Shown: positions 1 through 62,790 of the stretch, in pieces
Numbering within the stretch: position 1 is the stretch's first letter
How the letters are laid out: every line of letters starts with the position of its first letter
Assembly: GCA_964016885.1 (NCBI GenBank)
Contig: OZ024763.1
Location: 19,592,001-19,656,000, forward strand
Length of the DNA stretch: 64,000 nt
DNA from: Eledone cirrhosa
Lineage: Eukaryota
Direction: 5' to 3'
Notes under the pieces: generated by a model
The model's input: only the letters and a program-made list of their open reading frames with translations
What the model was told of the DNA's origin: nothing
Databases searched by the model: none
Made by a program: the position numbers and the translations under genes

Positions 1-2
1 AT

Positions 3-1547: not shown

Positions 1548-1797
1548 AAACCTTATACATGTGACATATGTGGGAAACTTTTCACTAAGAGTTCTGATCT
1601 TGTAGTTCACAAAAGAATACACACTGGTCAAAAATCCTTGCAATGTGAAATATGTGGGAAATCCTTTGCCTCTAACAGTAAATGGAAAAGACATACAACA
1701 ATACACACTGGAGAAAAAACCTTATTCATGTGAAGTTTGTGGGAAATCTTTCCCTCAGAACTCTTCACGAGTTGTTCACAAACGTAGTCAACACTAG
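1548..1797 (+). pseudogene. Three degenerate C2H2 fingers downstream of the ZNF-A stop (copies at 17636-17885, 33711-33960, 49865-50114)
   Basis: After ACT GCA TAA the frame continues [57 protein letters not shown], then a +1 frameshift, then [25 protein letters not shown], which resembles the ZNF-B C-terminus. Confidence 0.9.
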
Positions 1798-1904
1798 TGT
1801 TAAACCCCATTACTGGGAAATATGAAACATTAATAAACACACAAACAGTTGGAGTAAGAATATGAAATGTGATAAATGTTACTGTTACACATTGAAGCAT
1901 ATAT

Positions 1905-1934
1905 ATACACACATACACACACACACACACACAC
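1905..1934. repeat. (CA)n microsatellite, one per unit
   Basis: acacacacatacacacacacacacacacac. Confidence 0.9.
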
Positions 1935-2559
1935 AATCTTGACTCACAAACGTAATTCATTCCTGAAGGCCGATCGTCAGCCAAATTGTTTGTAAAGCAA
2001 AACTATTTTTCCCATATGAAATTTTAAGAGAGAAATACAGGGAGAGAGGCAGTGTAAAAGACTGATAGATATCACCATAGTAACTAACTATGCAGCAAGT
2101 GACACTTTCCTGCTGATACTCCCAGCTTGTTGCCAACCTTTGTTGCTGGCTTGTGTGTTCATTACTTGAGACACCGTTCATCAATGAAGATGTTTTATGT
2201 ACAGATTTGTTTTTAATGAGAGGAGTTTGTGATTTGAGGTTCCACTGTATATATATCAGTGTTGTAGTTTGATTGAAGCATTGTTGATAGGAAACACATT
2301 TAAATAATTTTGAAAACCATACATTACGCTAGAAAATTAAAATTTCCAAAATATAGAATCTTTACCTTGGCAAATTTACCAAATATTCTAGTGTTTTAAA
2401 ACCTATTATTGATCCTTTAAGTCTCTCACAGGGATACTCGCTTGTATGGGTTTCAAAATTATTTAAATTTGTGTTTCATATATATATGTATATATATATG
2501 TACTTCTCTATCAATTGTAAGAAATAAACTGCCATATATCAAAGATTACCACAAAAACT

Positions 2560-2810
2560 AGGCAGTAGAGTACAAGATATGCTGGACACTGCTACTGAAG
2601 CAAGGATGACCTGATGAGCTGGCTGCTGTTGTGGATACCTAAACATAGTAAGAACCTAGTGCGATGACCAAGATTGACTTACATAGATCAGATGTCTCTG
2701 GATGTCCAGCTAGAGATTAATGATCTCAGAAATGCCAGACATCTAAAAGAGAAGAGTAGAGTTGTTCCGGCCAATCCACCTGACCTAATAAATGATAATG
2801 ATAATATATA
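2560..2810 (+). mobile_element. 3' fragment of an RTE-like LINE (related copies 13265-13490 and 60225-60460, and in each unit)
   Basis: Translates to RYAGHCY..DDLMSWLLLWIPKH..PRLTYIDQM, an RTE C-terminal-like motif, and ends in an aat/gat microsatellite tail. Confidence 0.65.
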
Positions 2811-2919
2811 TTGATGAAAATTAATTATGGTGAAATATGTTGGAAATTATTCTCAGAGGTTTTGTATTGTAATCCACAAATACACCGTGGAAAGTTCTAC
2901 TTCATATTATTTGTCATTG

Positions 2920-3200
2920 CCATTCTGAGTTCAAATCCCGCCAAAGTTAACTTTGCTTTTCATCCTTATGGGGTCGATAAAATAAAGTACCAGTAATGCA
3001 CTGGGTAACTGCTGGCATTGTGCCAAAAGTAGAAACAATTATTTGTCATGTTGAGGGTGGTGGATTTACAGAATCTAGTGTCAGATGATATGCTGCTGAG
3101 GTTAGCTTTACTTTTCTTCCTCAGGTTCAGTAAAATAAAGTACCAGTAATCCACTGGAGTTGATTTAATCAGCTTTCTCCTTCCCTTCCAATAGCTGGCG
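2920..3200 (+). mobile_element. tRNA-type SINE fragments (two partial copies)
   Basis: B-box gagttcaaatccc followed by core aactttgcttttcatccttatggggtcgataaaataaagtaccagt; many related copies in the window. Confidence 0.7.
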
Positions 3201-3849
3201 TTGATAAAAAACAATACCAGTCTAATACTGGGGTCTGTTTTTCCTCTCTATTTCTTCCACTCTCTCATTCTCTTTCCTTCTCTGGAAGAAATCAACTGTT
3301 CAAACTTGGTGAGTGAAGGGCTCCACCAAGCTTCAAATATCCACAGTGGCACCCTTATGACTACATCATTTACAAAAACAAAACTAAAGATTTATTCTTT
3401 ATTTTATAAATCTTACCTGGTTTATATTTATATTTATGACAAAATATCCATGTGTATTATGTGTAAATAAAACCGATTTTATAACTAATATTTGTTGGAT
3501 GGTACTTTCATGACAGTTCAAATTATTAACATTTGAAAATACTTTAAAACTCTCTCTTTTTCTTCACCCATTTATTCCTGGGAGGGTTGTAGGAGGTAGA
3601 GTCCTCACCCGTTTATAGGTCCTATATGTGTAAAGTTTCCACAACAGATACACAACACATCCAAACCAGGTAGTTATACCTACCCAGTATTTTGATTTTA
3701 GTGATTTTTTTTGTAACAAATCTCAACATCCGAGACCTTACTAAGTGGAGTGCAACTCATCAGATTGGACCAAGGAAACAAAGTTTCCATTGGTCTTTCC
3801 AATTGATGATATAATCTATAATCTACCAGTTGTAACTCCGGTAAGTAGA

Positions 3850-3955
3850 ACAAGGGGAAATAAAGTGTCCTGCTGAAGAACTTAACACATCACCTAGTCT
3901 AGGAATTGAACTCAGAACCTCATGATTGTCAATCCAACTCTCTTACTACTAAGTG
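3850..3955 (-). mobile_element. tRNA-type SINE head, second family
   Basis: ggaattgaactc is a reverse-strand B box; it is the reverse complement of the plus-strand copy at 4110-4230. Confidence 0.55.
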
Positions 3956-4109
3956 ACATATCTTCCTAAGTTTCAGTGATAGTGGACAGTAAATAACGTG
4001 ATGGTGGTCATTTTATTTGATAGATTGACCAGTTGATCATCTCAATGGTGTATTATTGCCTTTTTTTCACAGCGTCTCTTGAAGTCGATGAGAAAAAGGT
4101 AATAGAGTA

Positions 4110-4230
4110 TTGGTTAGGGTGTTGGACTCAATGATAAACTTGTGAGTTCAATTCCTGCGATTGGCAACATGTTCTGTCGTACCAGAAGACAATTTATTTC
4201 ATGTTTCTTCAGTCCAATCAGCTGGAAAAA
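4110..4230 (+). mobile_element. tRNA-type SINE head, second family (another remnant at ~8235-8345)
   Basis: tggttagggtgttggactc ... gagttcaattcc (A/B-box-like) followed by cagtccaatcagctg. Confidence 0.55.
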
Positions 4231-4379
4231 AATTAGTTGTGACAACTCTGGTTCCAAGCTATATCAGGCTGTGACTTTCCTTTGGACAACATCATATAGT
4301 CTATATATAGTGATAACATGGGATGTATAGCTCTTTAGTTCTTAGTCCAGATTGTTCCATCAGGAATATATGTCAACTA

Positions 4380-4810
4380 ATTGTCTCCAATGATTTCAGT
4401 TGGTGACAGATTGTTAACATCCATGGCAGCTGATGTTGACAGTTTGTGGGTCATTTTGGAATGTGTTCCACCAGGTTATCTTCGGCTGGCCTCTTTTCCA
4501 CATGGCTTCAGGGTGTATCCATGTCATCGCTGTTTTAGACAGGTGGTCTTTTGGAGGGTGCAGAATGTGACACACAAAATGGAACCAACATTCTATGATG
4601 ATCTCCTGTAGTGTATGTGACCCTGCTCTCCACAGGATCTCACCAGCTGACCTTTAGAATCTTATGCAGGCACCTTTGTTAGAAAATGTTTAGAGACCTA
4701 TCCATCTTCACAGTGCGTTTCCATGTTTCACAGTCATAGATGGTCATGGGAAGCACAATGCTAGTGTACAAGCGGAGCTTGAGATACATGCTGAGGGCTC
4801 TGTTTGACCA
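4380..4810 (-). mobile_element. RTE-like LINE fragment, C-terminal region (copies ~20468-20898, ~36543-36973, longer copy ~52760-53260)
   Basis: Minus-strand translation of the 52.8-53.3 kb copy gives WHF/FAGHILHLPKDHLSKTAITW..KRGQPKITW and KLRLYTSIVLPMAIY, typical of RTE ORF ends. Confidence 0.7.
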
Positions 4811-4812
4811 GA

Positions 4813-5510
4813 ACCGAGATCCCCTCAGGGAAATAGCCTTCTCCAGTATATAGGAAAGGCGGTAGAAATTCCATCCTCTGCTCCATATGCAAAATGTCGG
4901 TATGCAAGAGATGTGATGGGATCTCAGGAAGTTTAGCTCTGAATGTAGGCTCTATGTGTGGCAGTTGCACTGGAACAGTAAACAGCAAATGAGGGCTACC
5001 AAATTCTCAGACGGGTCTGTAGAAACAGTAGATAGCTCCTGCTACTTAGGTGCCCGAAATAGCAGTGGTGCTGGGTGTACTGATGGTACAGGAGCCAGAG
5101 TAAGAACGGGATGGAGGAAGTTCAGGGAACTACTGGCTACATAAGGCTTCTCAAAATGAAAGGCAGATTATCTGATGCATGTGAACGTTCAGCAAGGCTA
5201 CATGGTACTGAGACTTGGGCGCTGCATGCAGAAGTCTTGTGTAGATTGGAAAGAAATGAAGCATAAATCAACTGAGAAAGAAACTAGGCATAAAAGGAAT
5301 CAAATTCTGTATGCAGGAGAGGAGATTGCTTTGGTGTGGACATGTGTTGCGTATGAAGGAAGACAGCTGCATAAAAAGCGCTGAAAGTCTTTGGAATCCT
5401 TGGAGTGGGGTGACCCAGGAAAACCTGGGATGAGGTGATTAAAGCCTACCTTGCCCAATTTCACCTCTCAGAAGAGATGACACATGACCAAGATCTCTGG
5501 CGATGTGCAG
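4813..5510 (+). mobile_element. RTE (BovB-like) LINE 3' fragment (copies ~20901-21583, ~36976-37658, ~53385-54130)
   Basis: IPSGKWPCPIC..GRNSILC cysteine cluster, CYLG, ARVRTGWRKFRELL, LHGSETWA and ERRLLWCGHVLRM, interrupted by stops and frameshifts. Confidence 0.8.
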
Positions 5511-5579
5511 TAATACAACAGTAATACGAACACAAGCTGAAGCATATGTACAGTATGCTCCGCTCCCAACAGCCCGCCT

Positions 5580-5781
5580 AGCCCACACACTAAAGTGGAC
5601 GTGTAAAAGACACGACAAGAAGCACCCAGCCCACACTGTGAATGTGGTTGGCATTAGGAAGGGCAACCAGCCAGAAACACCCCTATATGTGTGGTCACGG
5701 TCACCCGACACAACTTGCCTCAAAATAGGATCCATCCAACCCATGCTAGCATCGAAGATGGACATTAATCAATGATGATGA
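5580..5781 (+). mobile_element. Short retroposon with RTE-type (GAT)n tail (copies per unit, ~54180-54378 and 62340-62790)
   Basis: gtggttggcattaggaagggcaaccagc ... ccatccaacccatgctagcatcgaagatggacatt ... gatgatgat. Confidence 0.65.
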
Positions 5782-5924
5782 TATATATGTAGTGTACACA
5801 TAGTATAGTATAGTGCATATATATATATATATGATAAATGCTGGGGTCAAGCTGATTCAGCCATTCCTCTGGACAACATTATATATAGTGTATGTATGTA
5901 GTATATATATATATACATATACCA

Positions 5925-7912
5925 GTTGCAACACTAACTTCAAGAAGCCTACCAACCACCTAATAACCTACCAATCAAGCGAGCACATAAGCCAGATTGA
6001 CTTCTTGCTAGTTAGGCAATGAGACAGACAGATGGTGTCAAATACTAAGGCATACCCCGGGGAAGAATGTATCCAGTGACATCTCAATAAACAAGAGACA
6101 TACAGGAAGGTGTGGAAAAGGAACACCTGGAAGCTAAAAGACCTTTCACTAAAATATGAATTTAGGAAAGCCTTCAAGATGTGTATGACGCAAAAGAAGA
6201 CGATTCAGAATCGTGTGACATAGATGATAACTGGAATTTCTTACTTGACAACTTACTGTAGGCTACTGAAGACACTTATGGCTGGAGCAGAGCTCCGACC
6301 AGACAAAGAGTGACCTGGTGGTGGAACAGCATGGTAGATAGGGCCATTAGCGACGAAACGCTAGCATGGGATGCTTGGAAAAAATGGTGGGAGTAGAGAC
6401 CGATACACAGCCGCTAAGAGAGAAGCTAGACGTCAGGTGTACTTAGCAGGCAGGGAGGCTGAGAGTAAGAGGTTTGCCAATGTTCTGTGATGGGAAGATC
6501 AGAGACGTGCAGTATTTTGCATTTCAAGGCAGTGTGTCAGTGTAAATCAGGATGTTGTTGGAGATAAGTGTGAAATGATGCTGCTGTACTTAGTGTCACT
6601 AATGATCAGAAAAGGGAGGCCTAGAAATGTCATTATGACAGACTAATTGGAGAAAGTATCAAATTAGATGAGATGCAGTTTGGTTTTGTGCCTTGGAAAA
6701 GTACAACAGATGCCCTCTTCTTAGTAAGACAACTACAAGAGAGGTTCTTAAAGAAGAATAAGCCACTATACTTAGCTTTTGTTGACCTAGAGAAGGTCTT
6801 TGATAGGGTACCCTGATCTGTCATCATAATGGAGTTTACTGAGGAATTCCAGATACAAGTAGGAGTACATCAGGGTTCGGTCCTCAGCCCGCTGTTGTTC
6901 ATTATAGTCCTCCAAGCCATAACAGAGTAGTTTAAGACTGGCTGCTCATGGGAACTTCTCTATGCTGACAATCTGGTAATTATAGCAGAATCAGTAGAGG
7001 AGCTAGAGAATAAATTCTGGCAATGGAAACAGCAGTTGGAATCAAGAGGACTAAGAGTGAACCTAGCTAAGACAAAAGTGTTGATAAGTAGAAAAAGAGA
7101 CAAAACCATGATTCCATCATAAATTCTATAAAATGTACACAATGCAGATCTTGGATACACAAGAGATGTAGTGGGATAGGAGGCAAACTTACAGGTAGGG
7201 AAAACCATGTATGCAGTAGATGTACAGGTAAATTTTTGACAGTAGAAGTCGAAGTGACAGATACATTTTTCAAATGCAGGTGGGTTCTATAGAAGTGGTT
7301 CACAGCTTCCGGTACCTAGGTGATCAGATTAGCATGGGAGGAGATGTTCCGAGGCCATAGTATCTAGAATAAGGACAGGTTGGAAGAAGTTTAGGGAGCT
7401 GCTTACTCTGTTGACCTAGAAGGGTTTCTCCCTACGAACGAAAGGCCGGTTATATGATGCCTGTGTGAGATGCGCAATGCTGGATGGTAGTGAGACATGG
7501 GCAGCAACTGCAATGGATATGCGACGGCTGGAGAGGAATGAAGCAAGCATGCTCTGTTGGATGTGCTATGCCAGTGTGCGTGAACAACCAAGCATAGATG
7601 AGTTGAGAGAGAAACTGTGTAGAAGAGGGATAAGTTGTAGTGTGCGGGAGAGAAGACTTTAATCGTATGGACGTGTGATGCGCATGGAGGATGACCACTG
7701 GGTAAATAAGTGCCAAGAAATGTCAGTAGAAGGAAGACGCAGTAGAGGAAGACCACAAAAACATGGATGGAGGTGGTGAGAGCAGACCTCAGATCGCTGA
7801 AGCTCACAGAGGAGATGACAGAGGTCAGTGAGAAGTGAAGAAATGTTGAGCTGAATAGGACCCATCCCACCATTGCAAGCAGAGAAAAGTGGATGTAAAA
7901 TAGTGATGATGA
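5925..7912 (+). mobile_element. Degraded RTE LINE (end of endonuclease, RT, 3' tail), unit 1
   Basis: CNTNFKK..HLITYQS..SQIDFLL (APE C-terminus), TWWWN, QFGFVP..STTDALF..AFVDLEKVFDRVP, GVHQGSVLSPLLF, LLYADN (YADD), VNLAKTKV, GSETWA and a gatgatgat tail. Confidence 0.9.
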
Positions 7913-8629
7913 TATATGTAGTGTATATAATAGTTGTAATGTCACCAGTGCCAATCTATATCAGCTTTTCTCTTGGTCAACATGATATATAGTCTGTATA
8001 TATTGGACAATATTATATATAGAGTATATGTGGTGTAAATAATAGTTGTTATGACGACATTCTATATACATATGTACACACACACTGACAAACATGTATT
8101 TACATATCGAAGGATTTATGAGTATTTCATAGGCTAACCAAGTTACTCTCATGGAATGAAACGATGTATACACATATATACTTATACATATGTATACAAA
8201 CACATATTTTATAGTAAAGACATACATCATATTGTAATATCATGTTTTCAATTCTTAGCGAGGTAGGTACATTGTGTCCTTAAGCAAGACACATCATTCC
8301 ACATGTCTCTCATCTCCACAGCTGAAAAACACAAGTAGCAGAATTTGGAGGTTTAGCATGGGCTGGAATATTCTCTGCCTCCAACCTTTTCACTTCGGCC
8401 ACAAACCCAGACTTTGCTACCTGCTGTAGAGAGAAGAAGAAGGAATTAGAATGACAACAGTCCACTTGAGGAAGGAGTCCCATGGGATGGAATGGATGTT
8501 GTAGTGGGTACCTCTGGCTATTCTCCATGGTAACACCTTTGCCATTTTGTCTGTAGGGTGGGGCTGAATCACAGCTCAGACTGAAATATAATGTCTGTCC
8601 CTTTGCCTCTCCCATTATTTTCGTTGCTT

Positions 8630-8850
8630 GGGCGGTGGATTGGCAGTATCGGTAGAGGCTCAGACGCCATATTTTGACGCATAGAGTTACGGCCTTGCCG
8701 TTCTGCCTTCAAATCCCGCCGCAGTTAACTTTACCTTTCATCCTTACAGGGTCGATAAAATAAAGTGCCAGTCACGCACTGGGGTCGATTTAATGTACAC
8801 CCCCCCCCCAAAAAAAAAAATTACTGGCCTTGTGCCTAAATAAGAAACCA
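8630..8850 (+). mobile_element. tRNA-type SINE (tandem pair of the same family at ~13808-14190; other copies ~57510-57690 and ~60610-60780)
   Basis: A-box-like tggcagtatcggtagag, B-box-like ttcaaatccc, and core tttcatccttacagggtcgataaaataaag..cactggggtcgattta. Confidence 0.75.
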
Positions 8851-9130
8851 TTATTTATACAAATCTGATTAAAGAACTAGCATATTGATTGAACGTGTGA
8901 ATTAACATAACTGAAGGTCTTTCTGAATGTATTAAATTATGTAGGGGACTCTTAAGCCATGGCACCGACTTCAAGTAGCCATTAGAAAATTATCATCTAC
9001 CTCGGCTCCATCGTTACCACTTGTTACCGTCGTTACCACATAAAATGTGAAGATTGAGAAATCCTTCTCTTATACATCTCAACATATAAGCGTGTGTATA
9101 TATATATGTTTTTATTTAATATTTATATAT
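8850..9130 (+). other. Deletion scar: ZNF upstream flank fused to ZNF downstream flank (copies at ~24925-25205 and ~41000-41280)
   Basis: 8850-9024 matches 14300-14473 and 57803-57975 (upstream of ZNF starts). 9040-9100 matches 60058-60110 (downstream of the ZNF-B stop). Confidence 0.8.
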
Positions 9131-9626
9131 ATATATATACAGCGGTGGTACCCGGCGTTGCACGGGATAAGGTATTTTGGAATGCGGGCTGCCAGCAGAC
9201 CTAATCGTGGAAAAACTGCATGCCTGGACAATATGTAAAGAAAATAAACCGAATACTCTGATGGCTGGATAATCTAAGATTAAACCTGCCTTTTCCTGAA
9301 GCAGGAAAAGGCAAGTTTTCACCTAATTCGATCTAAAGGGGACCCACCAATTCCATACACTCATTTCCATTGGCTGCAAGGAAATATGTTCATACACGCA
9401 TATAGAATAGGTAATAATTTATGATAGAGTAGACAGCATCATAGATGACAGAGTTAGCATGTTCCGTGAAAACTTTATTAACTGCGAAGACGGTGGTCTA
9501 TCTTCAGAAAAAAAACAACATCCAATAAAACTAGTTTTGCAATCGATTATTCACCAACAAAAATTCGTATGTACAACAAATCGTCCATCTAAAACTTTAC
9601 TTTCACATTCGAGCACATCACTTGTT

Positions 9627-12137
9627 CTACAGTTCTAATTTGCGATGTTTTAGTTTAGAAATTTTTCAATCACGATGCTGAAGTCAATTTTTTCAGCCAG
9701 TTCTCGCTCTATGTACATCATTGCCAGAGCATTCAACCGCTCTTCACTCATGGTACTACGCAAATAATTCTTTCGAATACTCGTCGAAGATAGTGTCATT
9801 TTCGATGTCACCCTCGTAGAATTTCACAAGATTATCGATTCTCTCTCTATTGCATGTGTCGTCGTCGTCGAAGTGCGCCGGTATCAAGCACGAAAAATCC
9901 TTCACTAGATCGTGCAAGTCGGCAAAACGTTCGTTAAAGCTACTAATGATTCTATCTAAGATAGTGAAATAAACGTCCCGTTTAAAATGCTGACTCATCG
10001 TCTCATGAGGTTCGTCATGAAAACGCTTCTTTTTTCTTTTCCGTTTTTCTGTTGTAAACTCTGGTTCAACTTGACATTGCCCGGCGAGAATTTTAGCGTC
10101 TGATAATGTTCGGTCAAAATATTCATTTGAGCGGATATCTTCAATTTCTTTTACTACATTTTTAATCATGACGTCCGCGGAATATAAGTCGATAGCCTCC
10201 TTCTGCAAATATTGTGAAACAGAATGCAGCTTTTTAAGTAAATTCTGAAACTTCAACATGAAAATGAATTCAAACTTGCTCACATTTAGTAGCAAACCTC
10301 TGGCCTCGGCTAATACTTTTGGAGCAGTGTTGTGAACATCCCCACTTATTATCCTCTCTAGTGCACTTATTACTGCCGGTAAGTTGTTAATGGTAGCCTC
10401 TACAGCCTGAATGTGACTAAACCAGCGCGTATCTGAGAGTCTTTTTAATGTTAATACCGTTGAAATCAATAGTTTTTCTTGTTCTTCTTCGAGGATTTTC
10501 AGCGGTGGCAAGCTTGATGTTAAGAAAACATACAGGCTCTCCAATATACCAAAAAATAATTTACCATCCACTGACGATTGGCTAGCATCGATTAACACCA
10601 GGTTCAGGTTATGAGCGCAACAATGGACGTAAACAGCTTTCGAAGAGCATCTCTCTTTAACTCTAGCCTGAAGCCCAGAAATATGGCCAGACATATTCGA
10701 CACTCCGTCGTAAGCTTGTCCCCTAATATATTGAGCATCCAAGGATAGATCCTGGAAAAGAACTTTCACAAGCGAATCGTAAAATGATTCAGTGGCTGCT
10801 GATTCTAGTTCACAAAACGACAGGAAATGCTCCTGTGCGTGGCCACTTTTCGATACATATTGCAGTGACAGAGCATTGATCCTGATGCGAAATATCTATT
10901 GTGGAATCGATGATGACTGAATAGTATTTTACCGCTTTCACTTCCGTGATTATTTGTTGAGTACATTCGTTTGCCAGGCATTCTATGAATTCGTTTTGTA
11001 ATTTTGGACTTAAGTACATAGGCTGTCCTTTAGTGCGCCCAGGCGAGAATAAATGGCTTTCCAAGATCGTATCATACTTAGCCATCAATTTCAACAATTC
11101 AATAAAGTTTCTTTCATTTTTTGATTTGGCGCCAAGTCCAGCATATTCCCTGTGACCTCTGAAGGGGAGGCCTTGTTTTGCGAGAAATAACGTACAATCA
11201 AGCAATCGCCTCAATATCTGGCGATTTCGTTCAATTCGCTTCTTCTCTTCATGGATGAGGTTATCGATCACTGTTTTATCTGCGTCCAAACGATATTTTG
11301 TCATGAAGTATTACTTTTGTGAATTGACGTGAATGGCACTTTTCTCATGCTTGGCAATTTTTTAGAATCCCCATTTTGAAGTTTGCCATCCCACACTCTG
11401 GATTACCCCAAGTCTTCGAGTAAGATTCGGCATTTTTATCAGCAAACAGCCAACAACAAAAGCAATATAGTCTGTTGGATTCAGGAGAGTATACTAACCA
11501 GTGTCGGTCAACTTTATGGATTCCAGCACACTTTCTCTTGTACCAACTGATATTGAATTTTCTGTGGTTCGAGTCGAGAGGGAAATCAGCAAAATTATCT
11601 TTCAATCCTGGCTGACAAGGACCAACGGCCATGAGGGCGCGAATTAAAGGTGTCGTCAATGGTCTGTCCTTGAAATGTTTTCGGTCGCCTGGATACTTCT
11701 CTTGTAAATTCAACATGCATTCTACTGGCTCATACTCTGCGATTTGTTTTGCCAGTGTAGTTTCCTCTGAATCATTTTCATTTTCAGATTCCGATATAGC
11801 CATTTTTCCCTCTATTGAGTTCGGATCCCCAGTTGGAACTACATCTTCAGTGACTACGACGGTTGTTGAGATAGTCGATGGACCTGAGGCATCTTCGACA
11901 TCAGGTTCTCATGACCCTCCAGTGCTTTTCTGTTTCTCCAGTTCATCTGACCAGACTGACTCGCCAAATATTCCGGCAGTTACGTTTCTTTGGGATGCGT
12001 CACTACTTGTTGACGAAGACTGTTGACTTTTCAGAAAACTTGTGATTAGATGACATTTTGCAGATTCTTCTGTGGCAGCTTGTCTAGCTTCTCTCCTCTT
12101 TGTTGCTCCAGTTTAGTAAGTTTTTTTTAGGCAGCAT
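9627..12137 (-). pseudogene. hAT transposase pseudogene (TTF-type Zn finger, DUF4371-like region, RNase H-like core, partial dimerisation domain)
   Basis: Fragments: WLVYSPESNRLYCFCCWLF; LAKQGLPFRGH..NFIELL..YLSPKLQNE..IIDSTIDISH; RGQAYDGVSNMSG, YVHCCAHNLNL, DTRW; out-of-frame KNYLRSTMSEERLNALAMMYIE. Several frameshifts and stops. Confidence 0.92.
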
Positions 12138-12289
12138 TGTTAATGAGCACTATATTGACACTGTTTTCCAGTGGCTTTGTCTTTAAAAAAAATTCTTCCA
12201 TTTTCCTGTTTCTCTTTTTTTTTTCTATAAGTCTTTAAGTGCCGAAATAGCTTGTGATTAGAAAGCCACTTCACTTACCGCATTTCTCT

Positions 12290-12530
12290 GGTCGTGGCAA
12301 GTCGTTGGCTGGTTTTCCTCTCTTCCACGTGTGTACAATCCAGCTCGCCGATCGCAGCCTCAAATCGCACGTCTGTCTCAGTCCGATGACCGCCGTAGAA
12401 AAGAAGGGGCCTCTCAAGCTGACGTCACATCTGCTCGACTTTCCGGTCGAGCACGCTTCCGGTCAAGCACGCCCAGCCTCCGGCCACTACACACCACACC
12501 ATTCCCACAATGTGCATTATATTGACGCAC
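12290..12530. promoter_or_regulatory. CpG-rich putative promoter inside the hAT 5' region (copies ~28365-28605, ~44440-44680)
   Basis: GC/CpG-rich patch with CACGTG (~12326), TGACGTCA (12420-12427), CTTCCGG (12456-12462) and TTCCCACAATG (~12502). A minus-strand donor CG|GTAAGT lies at ~12273-12280, upstream of the transposase ATG at 12137. Confidence 0.45.
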
Positions 12531-15436
12531 TTGGAATAATGCAATTTGCTTGATTTGATATTCAACACCGAAGAATGTAAAACATGTCAAATAATCGACG
12601 AAAAGCAAATACCAAGTTGTTCTAAAATGTGACTAATGATAAAAAGTAACAACATAAATAAAAATATTATATATATATTTTCTATATAATCACACAATAT
12701 ATAGATATATATATTTGTGTGAATATACTCATGCATAATTATACTTTTAATTAAATATTAGGTTAAAAACCTGAGTATAGAGAATAACATAAGCATGTAT
12801 TACAACATTTCAAACAAATAAAATAATATACAATTTAGATATCAAATCATTTATTTATATTTACAAATCAAAGAATATAATAATCGGTTTTTAATGAGAT
12901 CCCTGTGATTGATGCAAGGCTACTAGTTTGTCAATGTTTAGTGTGAAAGCCGTTAGAGAGAGTCCTAAATCACATCTTCTTTCTATATCAAGGCGATTTT
13001 GACTTTTTGAAAGCAGATGCATCACCTGACTCAACTAAATAAGATGTGGGGAAAGCAAGTGAAAAAAATTTAGCGTTTTTATTTGACGGAATATTGTCTA
13101 CACAGATTAAGCGTTTTCTTTACGTTGTTGTAGTTAAGGATTCGTAATTACATGTGTAATAAGTTATGTGTTTAGAATTATAGCCTAGGGGTCCCACCTA
13201 GACCGACAGGAAAGCTAGGTGGGCGGCAGCCCCCCCCCCCCCCTGTTAGTTACGCCACTGGCTGAGAGTAGGATGACCTGATGAGCTGGCTCCTGTGGTG
13301 GATACCTAAACATAGTAAGACCCTAGCGGGATGACTGAGATTGACCTACATAGATCAAATGTCTCTGGATGTCCAGCTGGAGATTAATGATCTCAGGAAT
13401 GCCATGGAAGATCGTGATATCTAAAAGAGAAAAGTAGAATTGTTCTGGCCAATCCACCTGATCTAATTAATAATAATAATAATAATATATATTGATGAAA
13501 ATTAATTACAGTGAAATATGTTGGAAATCATTCTCAGATACATCCTGTAGAGAGTTCCACTTTATATTATTTGTCATTAAGGTTTCTTACAGAGACACAA
13601 TCTCATTTCATTGTTGAGGGTGGTGGATAGGCAGAATCAGTAGAGCATTCGACAACATACTTTCTGTCATATAGTTACATCCCTTTACATTCTGCTGATT
13701 TCCTCCTCAAAATTAGAAAGACAACAGCCCACATGAGGAAGGAGTTCCACGAAGTGGAGTGGATGTTGCAGTAGGTGACAGGAGTATAACGCCTGTCCCT
13801 CTCTCATTGGTGGATTGGCAGTATTGGTAGAGGGTCAGACACTATGCTTTGACGCATAGATTTACGGCCCTTTCCATTCTGAGTTCAAATCCCGCCGAGG
13901 TCAACTTTGCCTTTCATCCTTACATGGTCGATAAAATAAAGTACCAGTAATGTACTGGGTAATTGCTGGCCTTGTGACAAAATTAAAAAAACAATTATTT
14001 TAGTTGCTTGGGCAGTGGATTGGAAGTATCGGTAGAGGGACGCCTTGCAGCAAAGAGTTACGGCCTTTTATGGTCTGAGTTCAAATCCCGCCGAGGTTAA
14101 CTTTGCCTTTCATCCTTACGAGGTCTATAAAATAAAGTACCAGTAATGGCATAATTGCTGGCCTTGTGCCAAAAGTAGAAAAAATTATTTTAGTTGCTTG
14201 ATTCGTTTTCGTTTTTCTTCTTTACATTTCAGTTTTTTTTTTATGAACTTTAATAATGTGTTTTGTTTTAATATGAACAGTGATGTAAAATTCGTGATAT
14301 TATTTATACAAATCTGAATAAAGAACTAGCATATTGATAGAAAGTGTGAATTAATATAACTGAAGGTTTTTCTGAATTTATTAAATTAAGTAGGGGACTT
14401 TTAAGTCATGACACCGACTTCAAGTAGCCATTAGAAAATTATCATCTACATCGGCTCCAACGTTACCACTTGTACTTAATCTAATTTTATCTTTTGTGGT
14501 GATTATTTCATATTAAGGTAGACATTAATGTTTATATATAACATAAGGTGATTTATGTTCCTTATAGTTGTTGTTTTATCACCTGTATTATTAAATATTT
14601 CATTTCATCACAAACAACACCCAACATCGTGAAGTTGGTTGTTCAACATTTTACAGAACAGGAAAATATTATTTTAGTCAGAAATCAGTGAACATTTAGT
14701 TTTTACTAAATTTTCTTGACATTATATTTGGTCTTCAAAACTGAAGTACGTATTATTTCGTTTTCCATCACAGCACAAACATTGTGAACTTTTCTACTAT
14801 CTGTAGTGAAATATCTTGATTTATTACAACACGTACACACACACGTCTATTTATTTCTCTTTCTCATACGTACACACTGTATGTCTGTATATATATATTA
14901 ACCTTCATCTTATGTAATTATGAATATTAATTCTTTTGTGACCTGAATTGTCGTCAATAACAAGGACCTTTGTTTCGAAGACATATTCGTCTGTTTTATG
15001 AGCTGAAGATTTTAGTGTGCCTACTGCTTCTCTCACTATAACAAAAATAATAGTGGAATACTCCAGAATAATTTCTCTCTCTCTTCATCCAAGATCAGTT
15101 TTACGCTGCCATGCGTCTTATTACTTATACCGAGTGCTACATTACAACTTTGTAGAAGAAGAAAGCCATGCCCTGCAGTCTTTTATGGACACTGTTGTAT
15201 ATTAGACTACATAGTATCTATTAACGATTTCTACATTTCTTAATATATGAGTAAAAGTGATGAGAATCCTTTATGTAAAGATCACTAGCTAGAAATATGT
15301 CCGAATATAGCTGTGAGATTTGCAGGAAAACTTTCCCTTCAAAACTGAAATTATCCTCACACGAGAAAAACACTTCCACTGTGAAATATCTGGGAAGTCT
15401 TTTGTCTTAAGCTGTGACTTGAAAAGACATATAAGA

Positions 15437-17635
15437 ATGCACCCAGGAGAAAAACCTTATGCATGTGAAATATGTGGGAAATCTTTTTCTCTGGCTTCTC
15501 ATCTTGTACCTCACAAAAGAATACACACAGGAGAAAAACCTTATTCATGTGAAATATGTGGGAAATCTTTTTCTCGAGGTTCTTATCTTGTATATCACAA
15601 AAGAATACACACAGGAGAAAAACCTTATTCATGTGAAATATGTGGGAAATCTTTTTCTCGAGGTTCTCATCTTGTACGTCACAAAAGAATACACACAGGA
15701 GAAAAACCTTATTCATGTGAAATATGTGGGAAATCTTTTTCTGATGGTTCTGACCTTATAAAACACAAAAGACTACACACTGGTGAAAAACCGTTCCATT
15801 GTGAAATATGTGGGAAATCTTTTTCTCAAGGTTCTATACTTGTACATCACAAAAGAATACACACAGGAGAAAAACCTTATTCATGTGAAATATGTGGGAA
15901 ACCTTTTTCTGAAAGTTCTCATCTTGTAGATCACAAAAGAATACACACAGGAGAAAAACCTTATTCATGTGAAATATGTGGGAAATCTTTTTCTCATAGT
16001 TCTGTTCTTGTAGGTCACAAAAGAATACACACAGGAGAAAACCCTTATTCATGTGAAATATGTGGGAAATCTTTTTCTCATAGTTCTCATCTTGTACGTC
16101 ACAAAAGAATACACACAGGAGAAAAACCTTATTCATGTGAAATATGTGAGAAATCTTTTTCTGATGGTTCTGACCTTGTAAAACACAAAAGAATACACAC
16201 TGGAGAAAAACCCTTTCATTGTGAAATATGTGGGAAATCTTTTTCTTGTGGTTCTTATGTTGTACGTCACAAAAGAATACACACAGGAGAAAAACCTTAT
16301 TCGTGTGAAATATGTGGGAAATCATTTGTCTCCAACAGTGACTTGAGAAGACATACCACAACACACACAGGAGAAAAACCTTATTCATGTGAAATATGTG
16401 AGAAATCTTTTTCTAATGGTTCTGATCTTGTAAAACACAAAAGAATACACACTGGAGAAAAACCCTTTCATTGTGAAATATGTGGGAAATCTTTTTCTTG
16501 TGGTTCTTATGTTGTACGTCACAAAAGAATACACACAGGAGAAAAACCTTATTCGTGTGAAATATGTGGGAAATCATTTGTCTCCAACAGTGACTTGAGA
16601 AGACATACCACAACACACACAGGAGAAAAACCTTATTCATGTGAAATATGTGGGAAATCTTTTTCTCATAGTTCTGTTCTTGTAGGTCACAAAAGAATAC
16701 ACACAGGAGAAAACCCTTATTCATGTGAAATATGTGGGAAATCTTTTTCTCATAGTTCTCATCTTGTACGTCACAAAAGAATACACACAGGAGAAAAACC
16801 TTATTCATGTGAAATATGTGAGAAATCTTTTTCTGATGGTTCTGACCTTGTAAAACACAAAAGAATACACACTGGTGAAAAACCGTTCCATTGTGAAATA
16901 TGTGGGAAATCTTTTTCTCAAGGTTCTATACTTGTACATCACAAAAGAATACACACAGGAGAAAAACCTTATTCATGTAAAATATGTGGGAAATCTATTT
17001 CACATGGTTCTACACTTGTACATCACAAAAGAATACACACAGGAAAAAAACCTTATTCATGTGAAATATGTGGGAAATCTTTTTCTCTGGCTTCTCATCT
17101 TGTAGATCACAAAAGAATACACACAGGAGAAAAACCTTATTCATGTGAAATATGTGGGAAATCTTTTTCTCGAGGTTCTTATCTTGTATATCACAAAAGA
17201 ATACACACAGGAGAAAACCCTTATTCATGTGAAATATGTGGGAAATCTTTTTCTCATAGTTCTCATCTTGTACGTCACAAAAGAATACACACAGGAGAAA
17301 AACCTTATTCATGTGAAATATGTGAGAAATCTTTTTCTGATGGTTCTGACCTTGTAAAACACAAAAGAATACATACAGGGGAAAAACCCTTTCATTGTGA
17401 AATATGTGGGAAATCTTTTTCTCAAGGTTCTTATGTTGTAAGTCACAAAAGAATACACACAGGAGAAAAGCCTTATTCGTGTGAAATATGTGGGAAATCA
17501 TTTGCCTACAACAGTGACTTGAAAAGACATACCACAACACACACAGGAGAAAAATCTTATTCATGTGAAATATGTGGGAAATCTTTTTCTCAACGTTCTA
17601 CACTTGTACGTCACAAAAGAATACACACTGCATAA
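15437..17635 (+). CDS. C2H2 zinc-finger protein ZNF-A copy 2, 26 intact fingers (732 aa from the first in-frame ATG); may be a pseudogene
   Basis: Uninterrupted finger array. The track start at 15320 is TTG, the ancestral ATG at 15297 is out of frame, and the first in-frame ATG is 15437. No KRAB/ZAD/SCAN/BTB domain is visible. Confidence 0.8.
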
Positions 17636-20600
17636 AAACCTTATACATGTGACATATGTGGGAAACTTTTCACTAAGAGTTCTGATCTTGTAGTTCACAA
17701 AAGAATACACACTGGTCAAAAATCCTTGCAATGTGAAATATGTGGGAAATCCTTTGCCTCTAACAGTAAATGGAAAAGACATACAACAATACACACTGGA
17801 GAAAAAACCTTATTCATGTGAAGTTTGTGGGAAATCTTTCCCTCAGAACTCTTCACGAGTTGTTCACAAACGTAGTCAACACTAGTGTTAAACCCCATTA
17901 CTGGGAAATATGAAACATTAATAAACACACAAACAGTTGGAGTAAGAATATGAAATGTGATAAATGTTACTGTTACACATTGAAGCATATATATACACAC
18001 ATACACACACACACACACACACAATCTTGACTCACAAACGTAATTCATTCCTGAAGGCCGATCGTCAGCCAAATTGTTTGTAAAGCAAAACTATTTTTCC
18101 CATATGAAATTTTAAGAGAGAAATACAGGGAGAGAGGCAGTGTAAAAGACTGATAGATATCACCATAGTAACTAACTATGCAGCAAGTGACACTTTCCTG
18201 CTGATACTCCCAGCTTGTTGCCAACCTTTGTTGCTGGCTTGTGTGTTCATTACTTGAGACACCGTTCATCAATGAAGATGTTTTATGTACAGATTTGTTT
18301 TTAATGAGAGGAGTTTGTGATTTGAGGTTCCACTGTATATATATCAGTGTTGTAGTTTGATTGAAGCATTGTTGATAGGAAACACATTTAAATAATTTTG
18401 AAAACCATACATTACGCTAGAAAATTAAAATTTCCAAAATATAGAATCTTTACCTTGGCAAATTTACCAAATATTCTAGTGTTTTAAAACCTATTATTGA
18501 TCCTTTAAGTCTCTCACAGGGATACTCGCTTGTATGGGTTTCAAAATTATTTAAATTTGTGTTTCATATATATATGTATATATATATGTACTTCTCTATC
18601 AATTGTAAGAAATAAACTGCCATATATCAAAGATTACCACAAAAACTAGGCAGTAGAGTACAAGATATGCTGGACACTGCTACTGAAGCAAGGATGACCT
18701 GATGAGCTGGCTGCTGTTGTGGATACCTAAACATAGTAAGAACCTAGTGCGATGACCAAGATTGACTTACATAGATCAGATGTCTCTGGATGTCCAGCTA
18801 GAGATTAATGATCTCAGAAATGCCAGACATCTAAAAGAGAAGAGTAGAGTTGTTCCGGCCAATCCACCTGACCTAATAAATGATAATGATAATATATATT
18901 GATGAAAATTAATTATGGTGAAATATGTTGGAAATTATTCTCAGAGGTTTTGTATTGTAATCCACAAATACACCGTGGAAAGTTCTACTTCATATTATTT
19001 GTCATTGCCATTCTGAGTTCAAATCCCGCCAAAGTTAACTTTGCTTTTCATCCTTATGGGGTCGATAAAATAAAGTACCAGTAATGCACTGGGTAACTGC
19101 TGGCATTGTGCCAAAAGTAGAAACAATTATTTGTCATGTTGAGGGTGGTGGATTTACAGAATCTAGTGTCAGATGATATGCTGCTGAGGTTAGCTTTACT
19201 TTTCTTCCTCAGGTTCAGTAAAATAAAGTACCAGTAATCCACTGGAGTTGATTTAATCAGCTTTCTCCTTCCCTTCCAATAGCTGGCGTTGATAAAAAAC
19301 AATACCAGTCTAATACTGGGGTCTGTTTTTCCTCTCTATTTCTTCCACTCTCTCATTCTCTTTCCTTCTCTGGAAGAAATCAACTGTTCAAACTTGGTGA
19401 GTGAAGGGCTCCACCAAGCTTCAAATATCCACAGTGGCACCCTTATGACTACATCATTTACAAAAACAAAACTAAAGATTTATTCTTTATTTTATAAATC
19501 TTACCTGGTTTATATTTATATTTATGACAAAATATCCATGTGTATTATGTGTAAATAAAACCGATTTTATAACTAATATTTGTTGGATGGTACTTTCATG
19601 ACAGTTCAAATTATTAACATTTGAAAATACTTTAAAACTCTCTCTTTTTCTTCACCCATTTATTCCTGGGAGGGTTGTAGGAGGTAGAGTCCTCACCCGT
19701 TTATAGGTCCTATATGTGTAAAGTTTCCACAACAGATACACAACACATCCAAACCAGGTAGTTATACCTACCCAGTATTTTGATTTTAGTGATTTTTTTT
19801 GTAACAAATCTCAACATCCGAGACCTTACTAAGTGGAGTGCAACTCATCAGATTGGACCAAGGAAACAAAGTTTCCATTGGTCTTTCCAATTGATGATAT
19901 AATCTATAATCTACCAGTTGTAACTCCGGTAAGTAGAACAAGGGGAAATAAAGTGTCCTGCTGAAGAACTTAACACATCACCTAGTCTAGGAATTGAACT
20001 CAGAACCTCATGATTGTCAATCCAACTCTCTTACTACTAAGTGACATATCTTCCTAAGTTTCAGTGATAGTGGACAGTAAATAACGTGATGGTGGTCATT
20101 TTATTTGATAGATTGACCAGTTGATCATCTCAATGGTGTATTATTGCCTTTTTTTCACAGCGTCTCTTGAAGTCGATGAGAAAAAGGTAATAGAGTATTG
20201 GTTAGGGTGTTGGACTCAATGATAAACTTGTGAGTTCAATTCCTGCGATTGGCAACATGTTCTGTCGTACCAGAAGACAATTTATTTCATGTTTCTTCAG
20301 TCCAATCAGCTGGAAAAAAATTAGTTGTGACAACTCTGGTTCCAAGCTATATCAGGCTGTGACTTTCCTTTGGACAACATCATATAGTCTATATATAGTG
20401 ATAACATGGGATGTATAGCTCTTTAGTTCTTAGTCCAGATTGTTCCATCAGGAATATATGTCAACTAATTGTCTCCAATGATTTCAGTTGGTGACAGATT
20501 GTTAACATCCATGGCAGCTGATGTTGACAGTTTGTGGGTCATTTTGGAATGTGTTCCACCAGGTTATCTTCGGCTGGCCTCTTTTCCACATGGCTTCAGG

Positions 20601-31511: not shown

Positions 31512-33710
31512 ATGCACCCAGGAGAAAAACCTTATGCATGTGAAATATGTGGGAAATCTTTTTCTCTGGCTTCTCATCTTGTACCTCACAAAAGAATACA
31601 CACAGGAGAAAAACCTTATTCATGTGAAATATGTGGGAAATCTTTTTCTCGAGGTTCTTATCTTGTATATCACAAAAGAATACACACAGGAGAAAAACCT
31701 TATTCATGTGAAATATGTGGGAAATCTTTTTCTCGAGGTTCTCATCTTGTACGTCACAAAAGAATACACACAGGAGAAAAACCTTATTCATGTGAAATAT
31801 GTGGGAAATCTTTTTCTGATGGTTCTGACCTTATAAAACACAAAAGACTACACACTGGTGAAAAACCGTTCCATTGTGAAATATGTGGGAAATCTTTTTC
31901 TCAAGGTTCTATACTTGTACATCACAAAAGAATACACACAGGAGAAAAACCTTATTCATGTGAAATATGTGGGAAACCTTTTTCTGAAAGTTCTCATCTT
32001 GTAGATCACAAAAGAATACACACAGGAGAAAAACCTTATTCATGTGAAATATGTGGGAAATCTTTTTCTCATAGTTCTGTTCTTGTAGGTCACAAAAGAA
32101 TACACACAGGAGAAAACCCTTATTCATGTGAAATATGTGGGAAATCTTTTTCTCATAGTTCTCATCTTGTACGTCACAAAAGAATACACACAGGAGAAAA
32201 ACCTTATTCATGTGAAATATGTGAGAAATCTTTTTCTGATGGTTCTGACCTTGTAAAACACAAAAGAATACACACTGGAGAAAAACCCTTTCATTGTGAA
32301 ATATGTGGGAAATCTTTTTCTTGTGGTTCTTATGTTGTACGTCACAAAAGAATACACACAGGAGAAAAACCTTATTCGTGTGAAATATGTGGGAAATCAT
32401 TTGTCTCCAACAGTGACTTGAGAAGACATACCACAACACACACAGGAGAAAAACCTTATTCATGTGAAATATGTGAGAAATCTTTTTCTAATGGTTCTGA
32501 TCTTGTAAAACACAAAAGAATACACACTGGAGAAAAACCCTTTCATTGTGAAATATGTGGGAAATCTTTTTCTTGTGGTTCTTATGTTGTACGTCACAAA
32601 AGAATACACACAGGAGAAAAACCTTATTCGTGTGAAATATGTGGGAAATCATTTGTCTCCAACAGTGACTTGAGAAGACATACCACAACACACACAGGAG
32701 AAAAACCTTATTCATGTGAAATATGTGGGAAATCTTTTTCTCATAGTTCTGTTCTTGTAGGTCACAAAAGAATACACACAGGAGAAAACCCTTATTCATG
32801 TGAAATATGTGGGAAATCTTTTTCTCATAGTTCTCATCTTGTACGTCACAAAAGAATACACACAGGAGAAAAACCTTATTCATGTGAAATATGTGAGAAA
32901 TCTTTTTCTGATGGTTCTGACCTTGTAAAACACAAAAGAATACACACTGGTGAAAAACCGTTCCATTGTGAAATATGTGGGAAATCTTTTTCTCAAGGTT
33001 CTATACTTGTACATCACAAAAGAATACACACAGGAGAAAAACCTTATTCATGTAAAATATGTGGGAAATCTATTTCACATGGTTCTACACTTGTACATCA
33101 CAAAAGAATACACACAGGAAAAAAACCTTATTCATGTGAAATATGTGGGAAATCTTTTTCTCTGGCTTCTCATCTTGTAGATCACAAAAGAATACACACA
33201 GGAGAAAAACCTTATTCATGTGAAATATGTGGGAAATCTTTTTCTCGAGGTTCTTATCTTGTATATCACAAAAGAATACACACAGGAGAAAACCCTTATT
33301 CATGTGAAATATGTGGGAAATCTTTTTCTCATAGTTCTCATCTTGTACGTCACAAAAGAATACACACAGGAGAAAAACCTTATTCATGTGAAATATGTGA
33401 GAAATCTTTTTCTGATGGTTCTGACCTTGTAAAACACAAAAGAATACATACAGGGGAAAAACCCTTTCATTGTGAAATATGTGGGAAATCTTTTTCTCAA
33501 GGTTCTTATGTTGTAAGTCACAAAAGAATACACACAGGAGAAAAGCCTTATTCGTGTGAAATATGTGGGAAATCATTTGCCTACAACAGTGACTTGAAAA
33601 GACATACCACAACACACACAGGAGAAAAATCTTATTCATGTGAAATATGTGGGAAATCTTTTTCTCAACGTTCTACACTTGTACGTCACAAAAGAATACA
33701 CACTGCATAA
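31512..33710 (+). CDS. C2H2 zinc-finger protein ZNF-A copy 3, 26 intact fingers; may be a pseudogene
   Basis: Same translation as copy 2; ancestral ATG at 31372 is out of frame. Confidence 0.8.
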
Positions 33711-47441: not shown

Positions 47442-49864
<2,423 letters not shown>

Positions 49865-62339: not shown

Positions 62340-62790
62340 ACGTGCCCAGTCCACACTAATGTGGTCGTGTAGGTGTCACAACAAAAATTACCCAGTCCAC
62401 ACTGTAAAGTGGTCATGTAGGTGTCACGACAAAAATTGCCCAGTCCACACTAATGTGGTTGTGTAGGTGAAAAGACAAATTGCCCAGTCCTCACTGTAAA
62501 CTGGTCGTGTAGGTGACACAACAAAAAGCACCCAGTCCACTCTGTAAAGTGGTTGTGTAGGAGTCGCGACAAAAATTACCCAGTCCACACTGTAATGTGG
62601 TCGTATAGGTGTCACAACAAAAGGGACCCAGCACATACTGTAAATGTGGTTGGCATTAGGAAGGCCATCCAGCTGTAGAAACCAAGCCTAATCTGTCCTG
62701 GGTGAGCTGAACATGATCCACTGACCTGTTCTCTCCCTAAGGGTCAACCCATCCTACCCAAGCTAGTGTGGAAGATGGACGTATGATGAT
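62340..62790 (+). mobile_element. RTE-tailed short retroposon with an internal ~44-48-bp tandem array (~6.5 units, 62345-62650)
   Basis: cccag starts at about 62345, 62391, 62439, 62483, 62531, 62579 and 62627, followed by gtggttggcattaggaagg..ggacgtatgatgat as at 5580-5781. Confidence 0.8.

What the first reader, a model, noticed from the sequence alone, without database searches (positions are those of the whole stretch)
15437..17635. ZNF-A is a PRDM9-style coding minisatellite: constant scaffold, variable recognition codons
Seen: the 84-bp units are almost identical at DNA level, including synonymous sites (cacaaaagaatacacacaggagaaaaaccttattcatgtgaaatatgtgggaaatctttttct). Helix positions -1/3/6 vary widely ([84 protein letters not shown]) while position 2 is always Ser. 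Blocks recur: HSSV-HSSH-DGSD twice and (D/N)GSD-CGSY-SNSD twice. Known: PRDM9 arrays show this pattern of concerted evolution with diversification at contact residues. Inference: a fast-evolving DNA reader without KRAB or SET domains, possibly tracking repeats or transposons.
Basis: partly seen in the sequence, partly recalled or inferred. Interest (0 to 1): 0.72.

Follow-up and report, generated by a model that had tools for sequence, protein, structure and literature searches.

The report
Start-damaged octopod zinc-finger repeat gene
This is the longest member sampled of a large family of zinc-finger-only genes in a likely octopod: its 26 fingers vary mainly at the DNA-contacting positions and were likely reshuffled by unequal crossing-over, but the whole family shares that variety and this copy has lost the family's normal reading start, so it is likely a damaged ordinary family member rather than a PRDM9-like special case.

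Summary
The array is real: 26 C2H2 fingers at an exact 84-bp step, Ser at position 2 throughout, and both repeated blocks. 'Almost identical' holds only for 22 fingers (94% outside codons -1/1/3/6, 54% inside); the mean over 25 units is 84%. Contact codons show a nonsynonymous excess (about 3.5-fold, nominal P 3e-4). The pattern is family-wide: at least 123 start motifs exist in this likely octopod genome, the contact-diversity share is unremarkable (0.39-0.40 against a median of 0.36), and 28 of 31 variable codons occur in paralogs. Only length, scaffold homogeneity and block duplication stand out. The 15437 ATG is a new Met inside a decayed finger, behind a 37-codon upstream ORF. Copy A3 has an internal stop, and its contact changes are explained by recombination between fingers. 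No KRAB or SET domain was found; a separate PR/SET gene on contig C22 shows the stronger PRDM9 pattern (93%, 0.54). The scan noted finger shuffling on other pieces of this genome before. Verdict: new member of a known kind, function doubtful.

The parts
15297..15410 (+). Family start codon and leader finger, now a 37-codon upstream ORF out of frame with the array; it stops 26 nt before the 15437 ATG
15361..15362 (+). Junction of a 13-nt deletion relative to the upstream neighbour gene (16 nt relative to the usual family form); present in all four copies
15380..15442 (+). Decayed second finger (second Cys now Ser) that carries the new ATG at 15437, where the neighbour gene has a Thr codon; this in-finger Met motif occurs in 4 of 110 family genes, all four being ZNF-A copies
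15437..17635 (+). ZNF-A (copy A1) ORF, 732 aa, zinc fingers only
15464..17626 (+). 26 C2H2 fingers at an 84-bp step, all four zinc ligands intact; 19 distinct DNA units among the 25 full units
15943..16203 (+). 261-nt exact repeat of 16615-16875 (offset of 8 fingers)
16175..16400 (+). 226-nt exact repeat of 16427-16652 (offset of 3 fingers)
17633..17880 (+). Stop codon shared with the upstream neighbour gene, then two untranslated fingers and a frameshifted last finger
1..1547 (+). 3' part of copy A0 (starts upstream of the window); differs from A1 at 1 of 2701 bases, a synonymous change
31512..33710 (+). Copy A2, identical to A1 over the 2701 bases compared
47582..49864 (+). Copy A3: rearranged array with an internal stop at 48851-48853 after 15 fingers
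1760..15290 (.). Spacer of the 16-kb tandem unit, 98.8-99.9% identical between copies; holds a broken hAT-like transposase (9756-11908, minus strand) and reverse-transcriptase fragments (6625-7119)
58648..59997 (+). Paralog ZNF-B with an intact family start and 15 more divergent fingers (identity 0.69); used as a reference

Best explanation
ZNF-A is a 5'-frameshifted, four-times duplicated member of a large family of zinc-finger-only genes in a likely octopod, whose array likely grew and reshuffled by unequal crossing-over and conversion between misaligned 84-bp units, using contact codons that were likely diversified earlier by selection on the whole family. Shown: the family membership, the out-of-frame start, the new internal ATG, the block duplications, and chimeric helices between copies A1 and A3. 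Inferred: (1) recombination is the source of the new helices; (2) the contact-codon excess reflects older, family-wide diversifying selection, probably for binding repeats or transposons as proposed for other animals; (3) this copy makes little or no useful protein, since the long ORF could only be reached by leaky scanning, re-initiation after a 37-codon ORF, or an unseen splice. I put the odds at about 55:45 against productive translation. If made, the protein would be a finger-only DNA binder without an effector domain.
For: 123 exact start-motif matches genome-wide, 0 for the control pattern. 110 family starts analysed. Contact share P is 0.385-0.403 against a median of 0.364 in 48 paralogs; 172 distinct main-class paralog fingers show the same split, 0.895 outside and 0.504 inside codons -1/1/3/6; 28 of 31 ZNF-A codons at these positions occur among 426 paralog units, but only 4 of 17 whole helices do. 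The three contact differences between A1 and A3 each match a residue of another finger in the array, and A3 also lost one unit and gained two. The three point differences among the four arrays are one stop, one missense and one synonymous change, none altering a contact residue. 13 of 69 other family genes with four or more fingers also have a broken start ORF. In the 22 main-class fingers: 20 nonsynonymous steps at -1/3/6 against 14 synonymous steps overall, ratio 3.46, scaffold 0.28; third positions of codons 1, 2, 4 and 5 are invariant in 22 of 22.
Against: All 26 fingers keep four ligands with no stop or frameshift in 3 of 4 copies, while lesions cluster outside the ORF. The new ATG is unique to ZNF-A. 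The array is the longest sampled (26 fingers against at most 17 in 106 others) and its scaffold is more uniform than every random family draw and than 14 of 15 comparable paralogs, so something gene-specific did happen. A contig from a second sample matches 15340-15489 exactly (library type not on record). The selection test has no single tree and non-independent units, so its P value is nominal. The family-wide excess among close finger pairs is only 1.4-fold, and 17 of 109 contact changes are CpG-type.
Confidence: 0.62

Rival explanations
1. Rescued and currently selected gene. After the frameshift a new ATG restored the frame, and the gene was then lengthened and quadruplicated because it binds a young repeat or transposon.
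For: New in-frame Met in 4 of 110 family genes, all ZNF-A; 26 of 26 fingers intact; longest array sampled; most uniform scaffold but one; exact contig over the new start in a second sample; zinc fingers of octopus and other animals are predicted to bind transposons (PMC10547256, passages).
Against: Seven ATGs lie in 15094-15436, including the family start. A3 took a stop among only three point changes. No new contact-residue point mutation between copies. The contact share is ordinary for the family.
Confidence: 0.25
2. The contact-codon variety is mutational or neutral (CpG decay, relaxed constraint), not selected.
For: 17 of 109 contact changes against 13 of 285 changes in the remaining scaffold codons are CpG-type in close family pairs, and the excess there is only 1.4-fold. 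ZNF-B shows a ratio of 1.03.
Against: In ZNF-A only 2-3 of 20 nonsynonymous contact steps look CpG-type (my reading). Third positions lying between the contact codons are invariant in 22 of 22. Pairwise contact pN of 0.52 exceeds scaffold pS of 0.16.
Confidence: 0.07
3. The array is a detached PRDM9 module that directs recombination hotspots.
For: Same qualitative pattern; P of 0.40 overlaps the low end of complete PRDM9 genes (0.33-1.0 in Table 1 of PMC5519329).
Against: No PR/SET hit on contig C24 among 14 in the genome. The family ORFs begin at the first finger. A PR/SET gene whose best solved-structure match is PRDM9 lies on C22, with a different finger scaffold, identity 0.93 and P 0.54.
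Confidence: 0.03
4. The frameshift or the four copies are assembly artefacts.
For: A1 and A2 are identical over the array and 1.1 kb upstream. The deep run X1 lists no contig over 15394-15437 (a hole proves nothing).
Against: The deletion is in all four copies, whose spacers differ by 0.1-1.2%. A contig of another sample carries the junction exactly, though with only 22 letters on its left side, under the tool's 31-letter rule. The exact copy number may still be off.
Confidence: 0.03

Closest known systems
Lineage-specific poly-zinc-finger expansions (Emerson and Thomas 2009, PMC2604467, passages seen; Wells et al. 2023, PMC10547256, passages seen)
   Same: Tandem C-X2-C-X12-H-X3-H fingers with 7-residue linkers, clustered paralogs, diversification at -1/3/6, gain and loss of fingers, members without an N-terminal domain.
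   Different: No KRAB or other effector found; a very uniform scaffold shared across contigs; this member has lost the family start.
Octopus-specific C2H2 expansions (Holzinger et al. 2025, PMC12513265, passages seen)
   Same: Large lineage-specific clusters (104-495 sequences in that paper); the host is octopod-like (a PRDM14 exon is 100% identical to Octopus bimaculoides).
   Different: I could not place this family in one of their clusters; no octopus protein appeared among the hits listed. The passages seen do not treat finger-level turnover.
Mouse KRAB-ZFP cluster paralogs (PMC5363842, passages seen)
   Same: Blocks of 2-7 fingers repeated within one gene or pseudogene; new finger sets either fixed or decaying.
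   Different: Those genes carry KRAB and recruit KAP1; no KRAB match was found here.
PRDM9 zinc-finger minisatellite (Baker et al. 2017, PMC5519329, passages and section 10 part 1 seen)
   Same: 84-bp coding repeat, diversity concentrated at contact residues, turnover by duplication and conversion.
   Different: No KRAB, SSXRD or PR/SET; not top-ranked among finger genes of its genome; lower identity (0.84 against 0.93 for the C22 gene); distinct scaffold classes persist in multi-finger blocks.

Membership tests
PRDM9 | PR/SET domain upstream of the array | tested here: not met
   No PR/SET in the ORF or in the spacer ORFs scanned; 0 of 14 genome hits on contig C24.
PRDM9 | KRAB and SSXRD domains | tested here: inconclusive
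   No match over cut-off in the genome, but the KRAB search rang in no control genome and a divergent domain could be missed; none in the 46 spacer ORFs.
PRDM9 | [quoted passage not shown] | tested here: not met
   P 0.385-0.403; 15 and 6 of 48 family paralogs reach these values; the C22 gene has 0.539. I used positions -1, 2, 3, 6.
PRDM9 | High DNA identity between fingers from turnover inside the array | tested here: inconclusive
   0.84 overall, with 4 of 48 paralogs at 0.833 or more; scaffold above all random draws; below the C22 gene (0.93).
PRDM9 | Meiotic expression, hotspot binding, high allelic diversity | not testable with these tools
   No population-scale or functional data for the array.
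Lineage-specific poly-zinc-finger gene family | Tandem canonical C2H2 fingers with conserved linkers | tested here: met
   26 fingers; Pfam zf-H2C2_2 E 1.5e-228.
Lineage-specific poly-zinc-finger gene family | Many clustered recent paralogs, with birth and death | tested here: met
   19 starts in 264 kb; 123 exact motifs genome-wide; many truncated members.
Lineage-specific poly-zinc-finger gene family | Nonsynonymous excess at -1/3/6 | tested here: met
   Ratio 3.46 (main class) and 2.32 (25 units), nominal P 3e-4 and 0.004; 1.4 among close family pairs. Counting test only, no codon model.
Lineage-specific poly-zinc-finger gene family | Intact, expressed protein-coding gene | tested here: inconclusive
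   Family start out of frame; internal ATG available; translation not testable.
KRAB-ZFP (transposon repressors) | N-terminal KRAB domain | tested here: not met
   Family ORFs begin at the first finger; no KRAB in the ZNF-A ORF; no KRAB match in the genome search (a weak search).
KRAB-ZFP (transposon repressors) | Binding to transposon sequences | not testable with these tools
   No validated finger-to-motif predictor or repeat library available.

The most novel reading that the evidence does not exclude
ZNF-A is a gene that lost its start, regained one through a new ATG inside a dead finger, and then became the longest and one of the most homogenised arrays of its family and was copied four times: a young, effector-less DNA reader that tracks a repeat, varies between individuals, and runs PRDM9-like finger turnover beside a true PRDM9-like gene in an invertebrate.
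Probability: 0.2. Interest if true: 0.55.

Novelty: new member of a known kind. Interest (0 to 1): 0.3.

Why it matters
It shows at single-base resolution how an invertebrate, KRAB-less finger family makes new recognition helices by crossing over inside the helix. It also warns that a PRDM9-like look does not imply a working or PRDM9-like gene: here the look is inherited from the family and sits on a copy with a broken start. If the new ATG is used, this would be a dated case of gene rescue followed by array growth. The control found on C22, a PRDM9-like PR/SET gene with a 36-plus finger array in a likely octopod, may matter more than the finding itself.

Tried and rejected
Homolog searches with ZNF-B residues 1-60 and with ZNF-A gave only generic finger proteins, at most 61% and 59% identical, with no octopus name among the rows listed; the profile-library search was swamped by long finger proteins. 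They neither place nor exclude the family in other octopods. Sequencing runs: no RNA holder listed; this is no evidence on expression. Run X3 has no library record. Its depth relative to X1 varies from 0 to about 0.16 across multi-copy stretches, which looks unlike plain genomic DNA, but I could not establish that it is RNA, and its piece at 15143-15259 has three differences, as many as copy A3 has there, one of them listed and matching A3. RAD-seq runs X4-X6 gave no usable cover of the gene. No terminal inverted repeats were found around the hAT-like remnant in the stretches tried. A KRAB-like exon of the C22 gene, spotted by recalled resemblance, was not confirmed by Pfam, solved structures or a 3-sequence profile. 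An upstream coding exon was sought among spacer ORFs of 60 aa or more and not found; short exons would be missed. No structure prediction was run, since a finger array fold would not discriminate the rivals. Literature searches; one search found 0 papers and one unrelated paper, so these searches showed no report of this array or of an octopus PRDM9, in a library that lacks most subscription papers. PMC4795812 was not held. No supplements were read; Baker's supplementary file 3B (finger identities) would refine the PRDM9 comparison.

Full report
Observation. The window is G000:C24:19592001-19656000 of a 3.0-Gb assembly. A PRDM14 exon of this genome is 100% identical over 90 aa to Octopus bimaculoides, so the host is likely an octopod. 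The ORF 15437-17635 holds 26 C2H2 fingers at an exact 84-bp step with all zinc ligands intact. Heterozygosity is 0.86 at -1, 0.61 at 1, 0 at 2, 0.77 at 3 and 0.79 at 6. Mean identity of the 25 full units is 0.84. The 22 main-class units are 0.94 identical outside codons -1/1/3/6 and 0.54 inside; three units belong to a different scaffold class. Both repeated three-finger blocks differ at 2 of 252 bases.

Selection. For each codon I counted the fewest steps linking the observed codons, resolving ambiguous paths towards synonymous. In the main class there are 20 nonsynonymous steps at -1/3/6 and 14 synonymous steps overall: a rate ratio of 3.46 (nominal P 3e-4), against 0.28 in the scaffold. All 25 units give 2.32 (P 0.004); ZNF-B gives 1.03. 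Third positions of codons 1, 2, 4 and 5 are invariant in 22 of 22 units, which argues against a local mutation hot spot. These P values are nominal, because conversion leaves no single tree (the same caveat is made in PMC5519329, passages). Against strong recent selection: among 194 close finger pairs from 383 distinct family units the excess is only 1.4-fold (P 0.008), and 17 of 109 contact changes are CpG-type.

Family context. The gene belongs to a family that starts with a Met directly before its first finger. There are 19 starts in 264 kb around the window and 123 exact motif matches in the genome, of which 100 were listed. I analysed 110 starts; identical duplicates outside the C24 region were collapsed and the 23 unlisted matches were not fetched. 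Among 48 other genes with four or more in-register units, the share of diversity at -1/2/3/6 has a median of 0.364. ZNF-A has 0.385 (with one post-stop unit) or 0.403, reached by 15 and 6 of 48. Identity of 0.833 is reached by 4 of 48. The 172 distinct main-class paralog fingers already show 0.895 outside and 0.504 inside the variable codons. 28 of 31 ZNF-A codons at -1/1/3/6 occur among 426 paralog units (18-37 distinct codons per position in that pool), but only 4 of 17 helices do, or 5 counting the last finger shared with the neighbour gene. Against random draws of paralog fingers, the ZNF-A scaffold is more uniform (0.937 against 0.895 +/- 0.012; 0 of 2000 draws reach it), while its contact share is not unusual (11% of draws reach it). 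So homogenisation and length (26 fingers against at most 17 in 106 others) are particular to this gene, and the contact variety is a family trait.

The broken start. The family ATG is at 15297. A 13-nt deletion relative to the upstream neighbour shifts it out of frame after about 22 codons, giving a 37-codon ORF that ends 26 nt before 15437. The ATG at 15437 lies where the neighbour has a Thr codon, in a finger that has lost a Cys; this motif occurs in 4 of 110 genes, all ZNF-A copies. The stop at 17633 is shared with the neighbour and cuts off three more fingers. The 5' flank is closest to another cluster gene (94.0%, against 91.6% for the neighbour), the 3' flank to the neighbour (92.7%), so ZNF-A is probably a recombinant (inference). 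Broken starts are common: 13 of 69 other genes with four or more fingers. A contig from a second sample matches 15340-15489 exactly, so the junction is unlikely to be an assembly error; its library type is not on record.

The four copies. ZNF-A lies in a 16-kb unit repeated four times, with spacers 98.8-99.9% identical. A2 equals A1 and A0 differs by one synonymous base in 2701. A3 differs at three contact residues, each matching another finger of the array (finger 1 position 6; finger 3 position 3; a fusion of fingers 5 and 6 that removes one unit), has a two-finger duplication, one scaffold missense change and an internal stop. The recent change in recognition is thus explained by recombination, and the three point changes show no sign of constraint, on a very small count.

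PRDM9 comparison. None of 14 PR-domain hits lies on C24; no KRAB or SSXRD match passes cut-off in the genome (weak searches); 52 spacer ORFs were listed, 50 scanned, giving only transposon-type and sub-threshold hits. A PR/SET exon on C22 matches PRDM9 structures best (E 2.5e-24 against 1.2e-15 for the next family member) and is followed by an array with 36 pattern-matching fingers, identity 0.93 and P 0.54 over 33 units. Complete PRDM9 genes in Table 1 of PMC5519329 range from 0.33 to 1.0, human 0.687, and usually rank first in their genome. ZNF-A works like such an array in its mode of turnover but is not a member.

What is known. Selection at -1/3/6 in lineage-specific poly-finger families is established for mammals, fish and frog (PMC2604467, passages). 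Repeated finger blocks within genes and pseudogenes are described in mouse clusters (PMC5363842, passages). Octopus-specific C2H2 expansions are described (PMC12513265, passages; PMC12988792, passages), and octopus fingers are predicted to bind transposons (PMC10547256, passages). PRDM9 outside vertebrates was studied in cnidarians, with no mention of molluscs in the main text (bioRxiv 10.64898/2026.09.07.749791, passages). Earlier notes of this scan report finger shuffling on other pieces of this genome; none lies near this window.

Verdict. Best reading (0.62): a start-damaged family member whose array turns over by unequal exchange, with inherited contact diversity and doubtful function. 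Main rival (0.25): a rescued, selected gene. Novelty: new member of a known kind. Interest 0.3.

Noticed in passing
G000:C22:11546185-11554100 (L022, L031, L032): PRDM9-like gene: zinc-knuckle-like and PR/SET exons (best solved-structure match PRDM9) followed by a 1164-codon open frame with 36 pattern-matching fingers, identity 0.93, P 0.54, contact ratio 2.9. My searches showed no report of an octopus PRDM9.
   Followed up: partly
G000:C22:11539626-11544280 (L033, L031): Short ORFs upstream of that gene resemble, from recall only, the KRAB and SSXRD exons of PRDM9; not confirmed by Pfam, solved structures or a small profile.
   Followed up: partly
window 9756-11908 (minus strand) and copies at +16 kb steps: Broken hAT-like transposase (DUF4371 matches) in three frames, carried in each ZNF-A unit.
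   Followed up: partly
window 6625-7289: Reverse-transcriptase fragments and a PHD-like fragment, all under Pfam cut-off: likely a decayed non-LTR element.
   Followed up: no
window 13770-14241: Very high-copy repeat pair in inverted orientation (about 13810-14010 and 14015-14200) upstream of the gene.
   Followed up: no
window 14918-15161: Run X1 holds only a 98%-identical variant here whose listed differences are in none of the four assembled copies: a hint of haplotype variation between individuals.
   Followed up: no
window 15397-15410 and 15070-15093: Two pyrimidine-rich stretches ending in AG that could be splice acceptors; the first ends exactly at the upstream ORF's stop and would bypass it.
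   Followed up: no
G000:C24 and other family loci: Several unrelated family members have frame-breaking indels near the end of the leader finger, suggesting a deletion-prone spot with short repeats.
   Followed up: partly
L066, L071, L078, L085, L090, L110, L113, L119, L126: Nine family members share an 83-codon, two-finger ORF length: possibly a separate short subfamily.
   Followed up: no
G000:C1132:436392-447107 (L023, L024): Two near-identical PR-domain exons in inverted orientation, 10 kb apart.
   Followed up: no
window 62345-62650: 48-bp tandem repeat, 6.5 copies.
   Followed up: no
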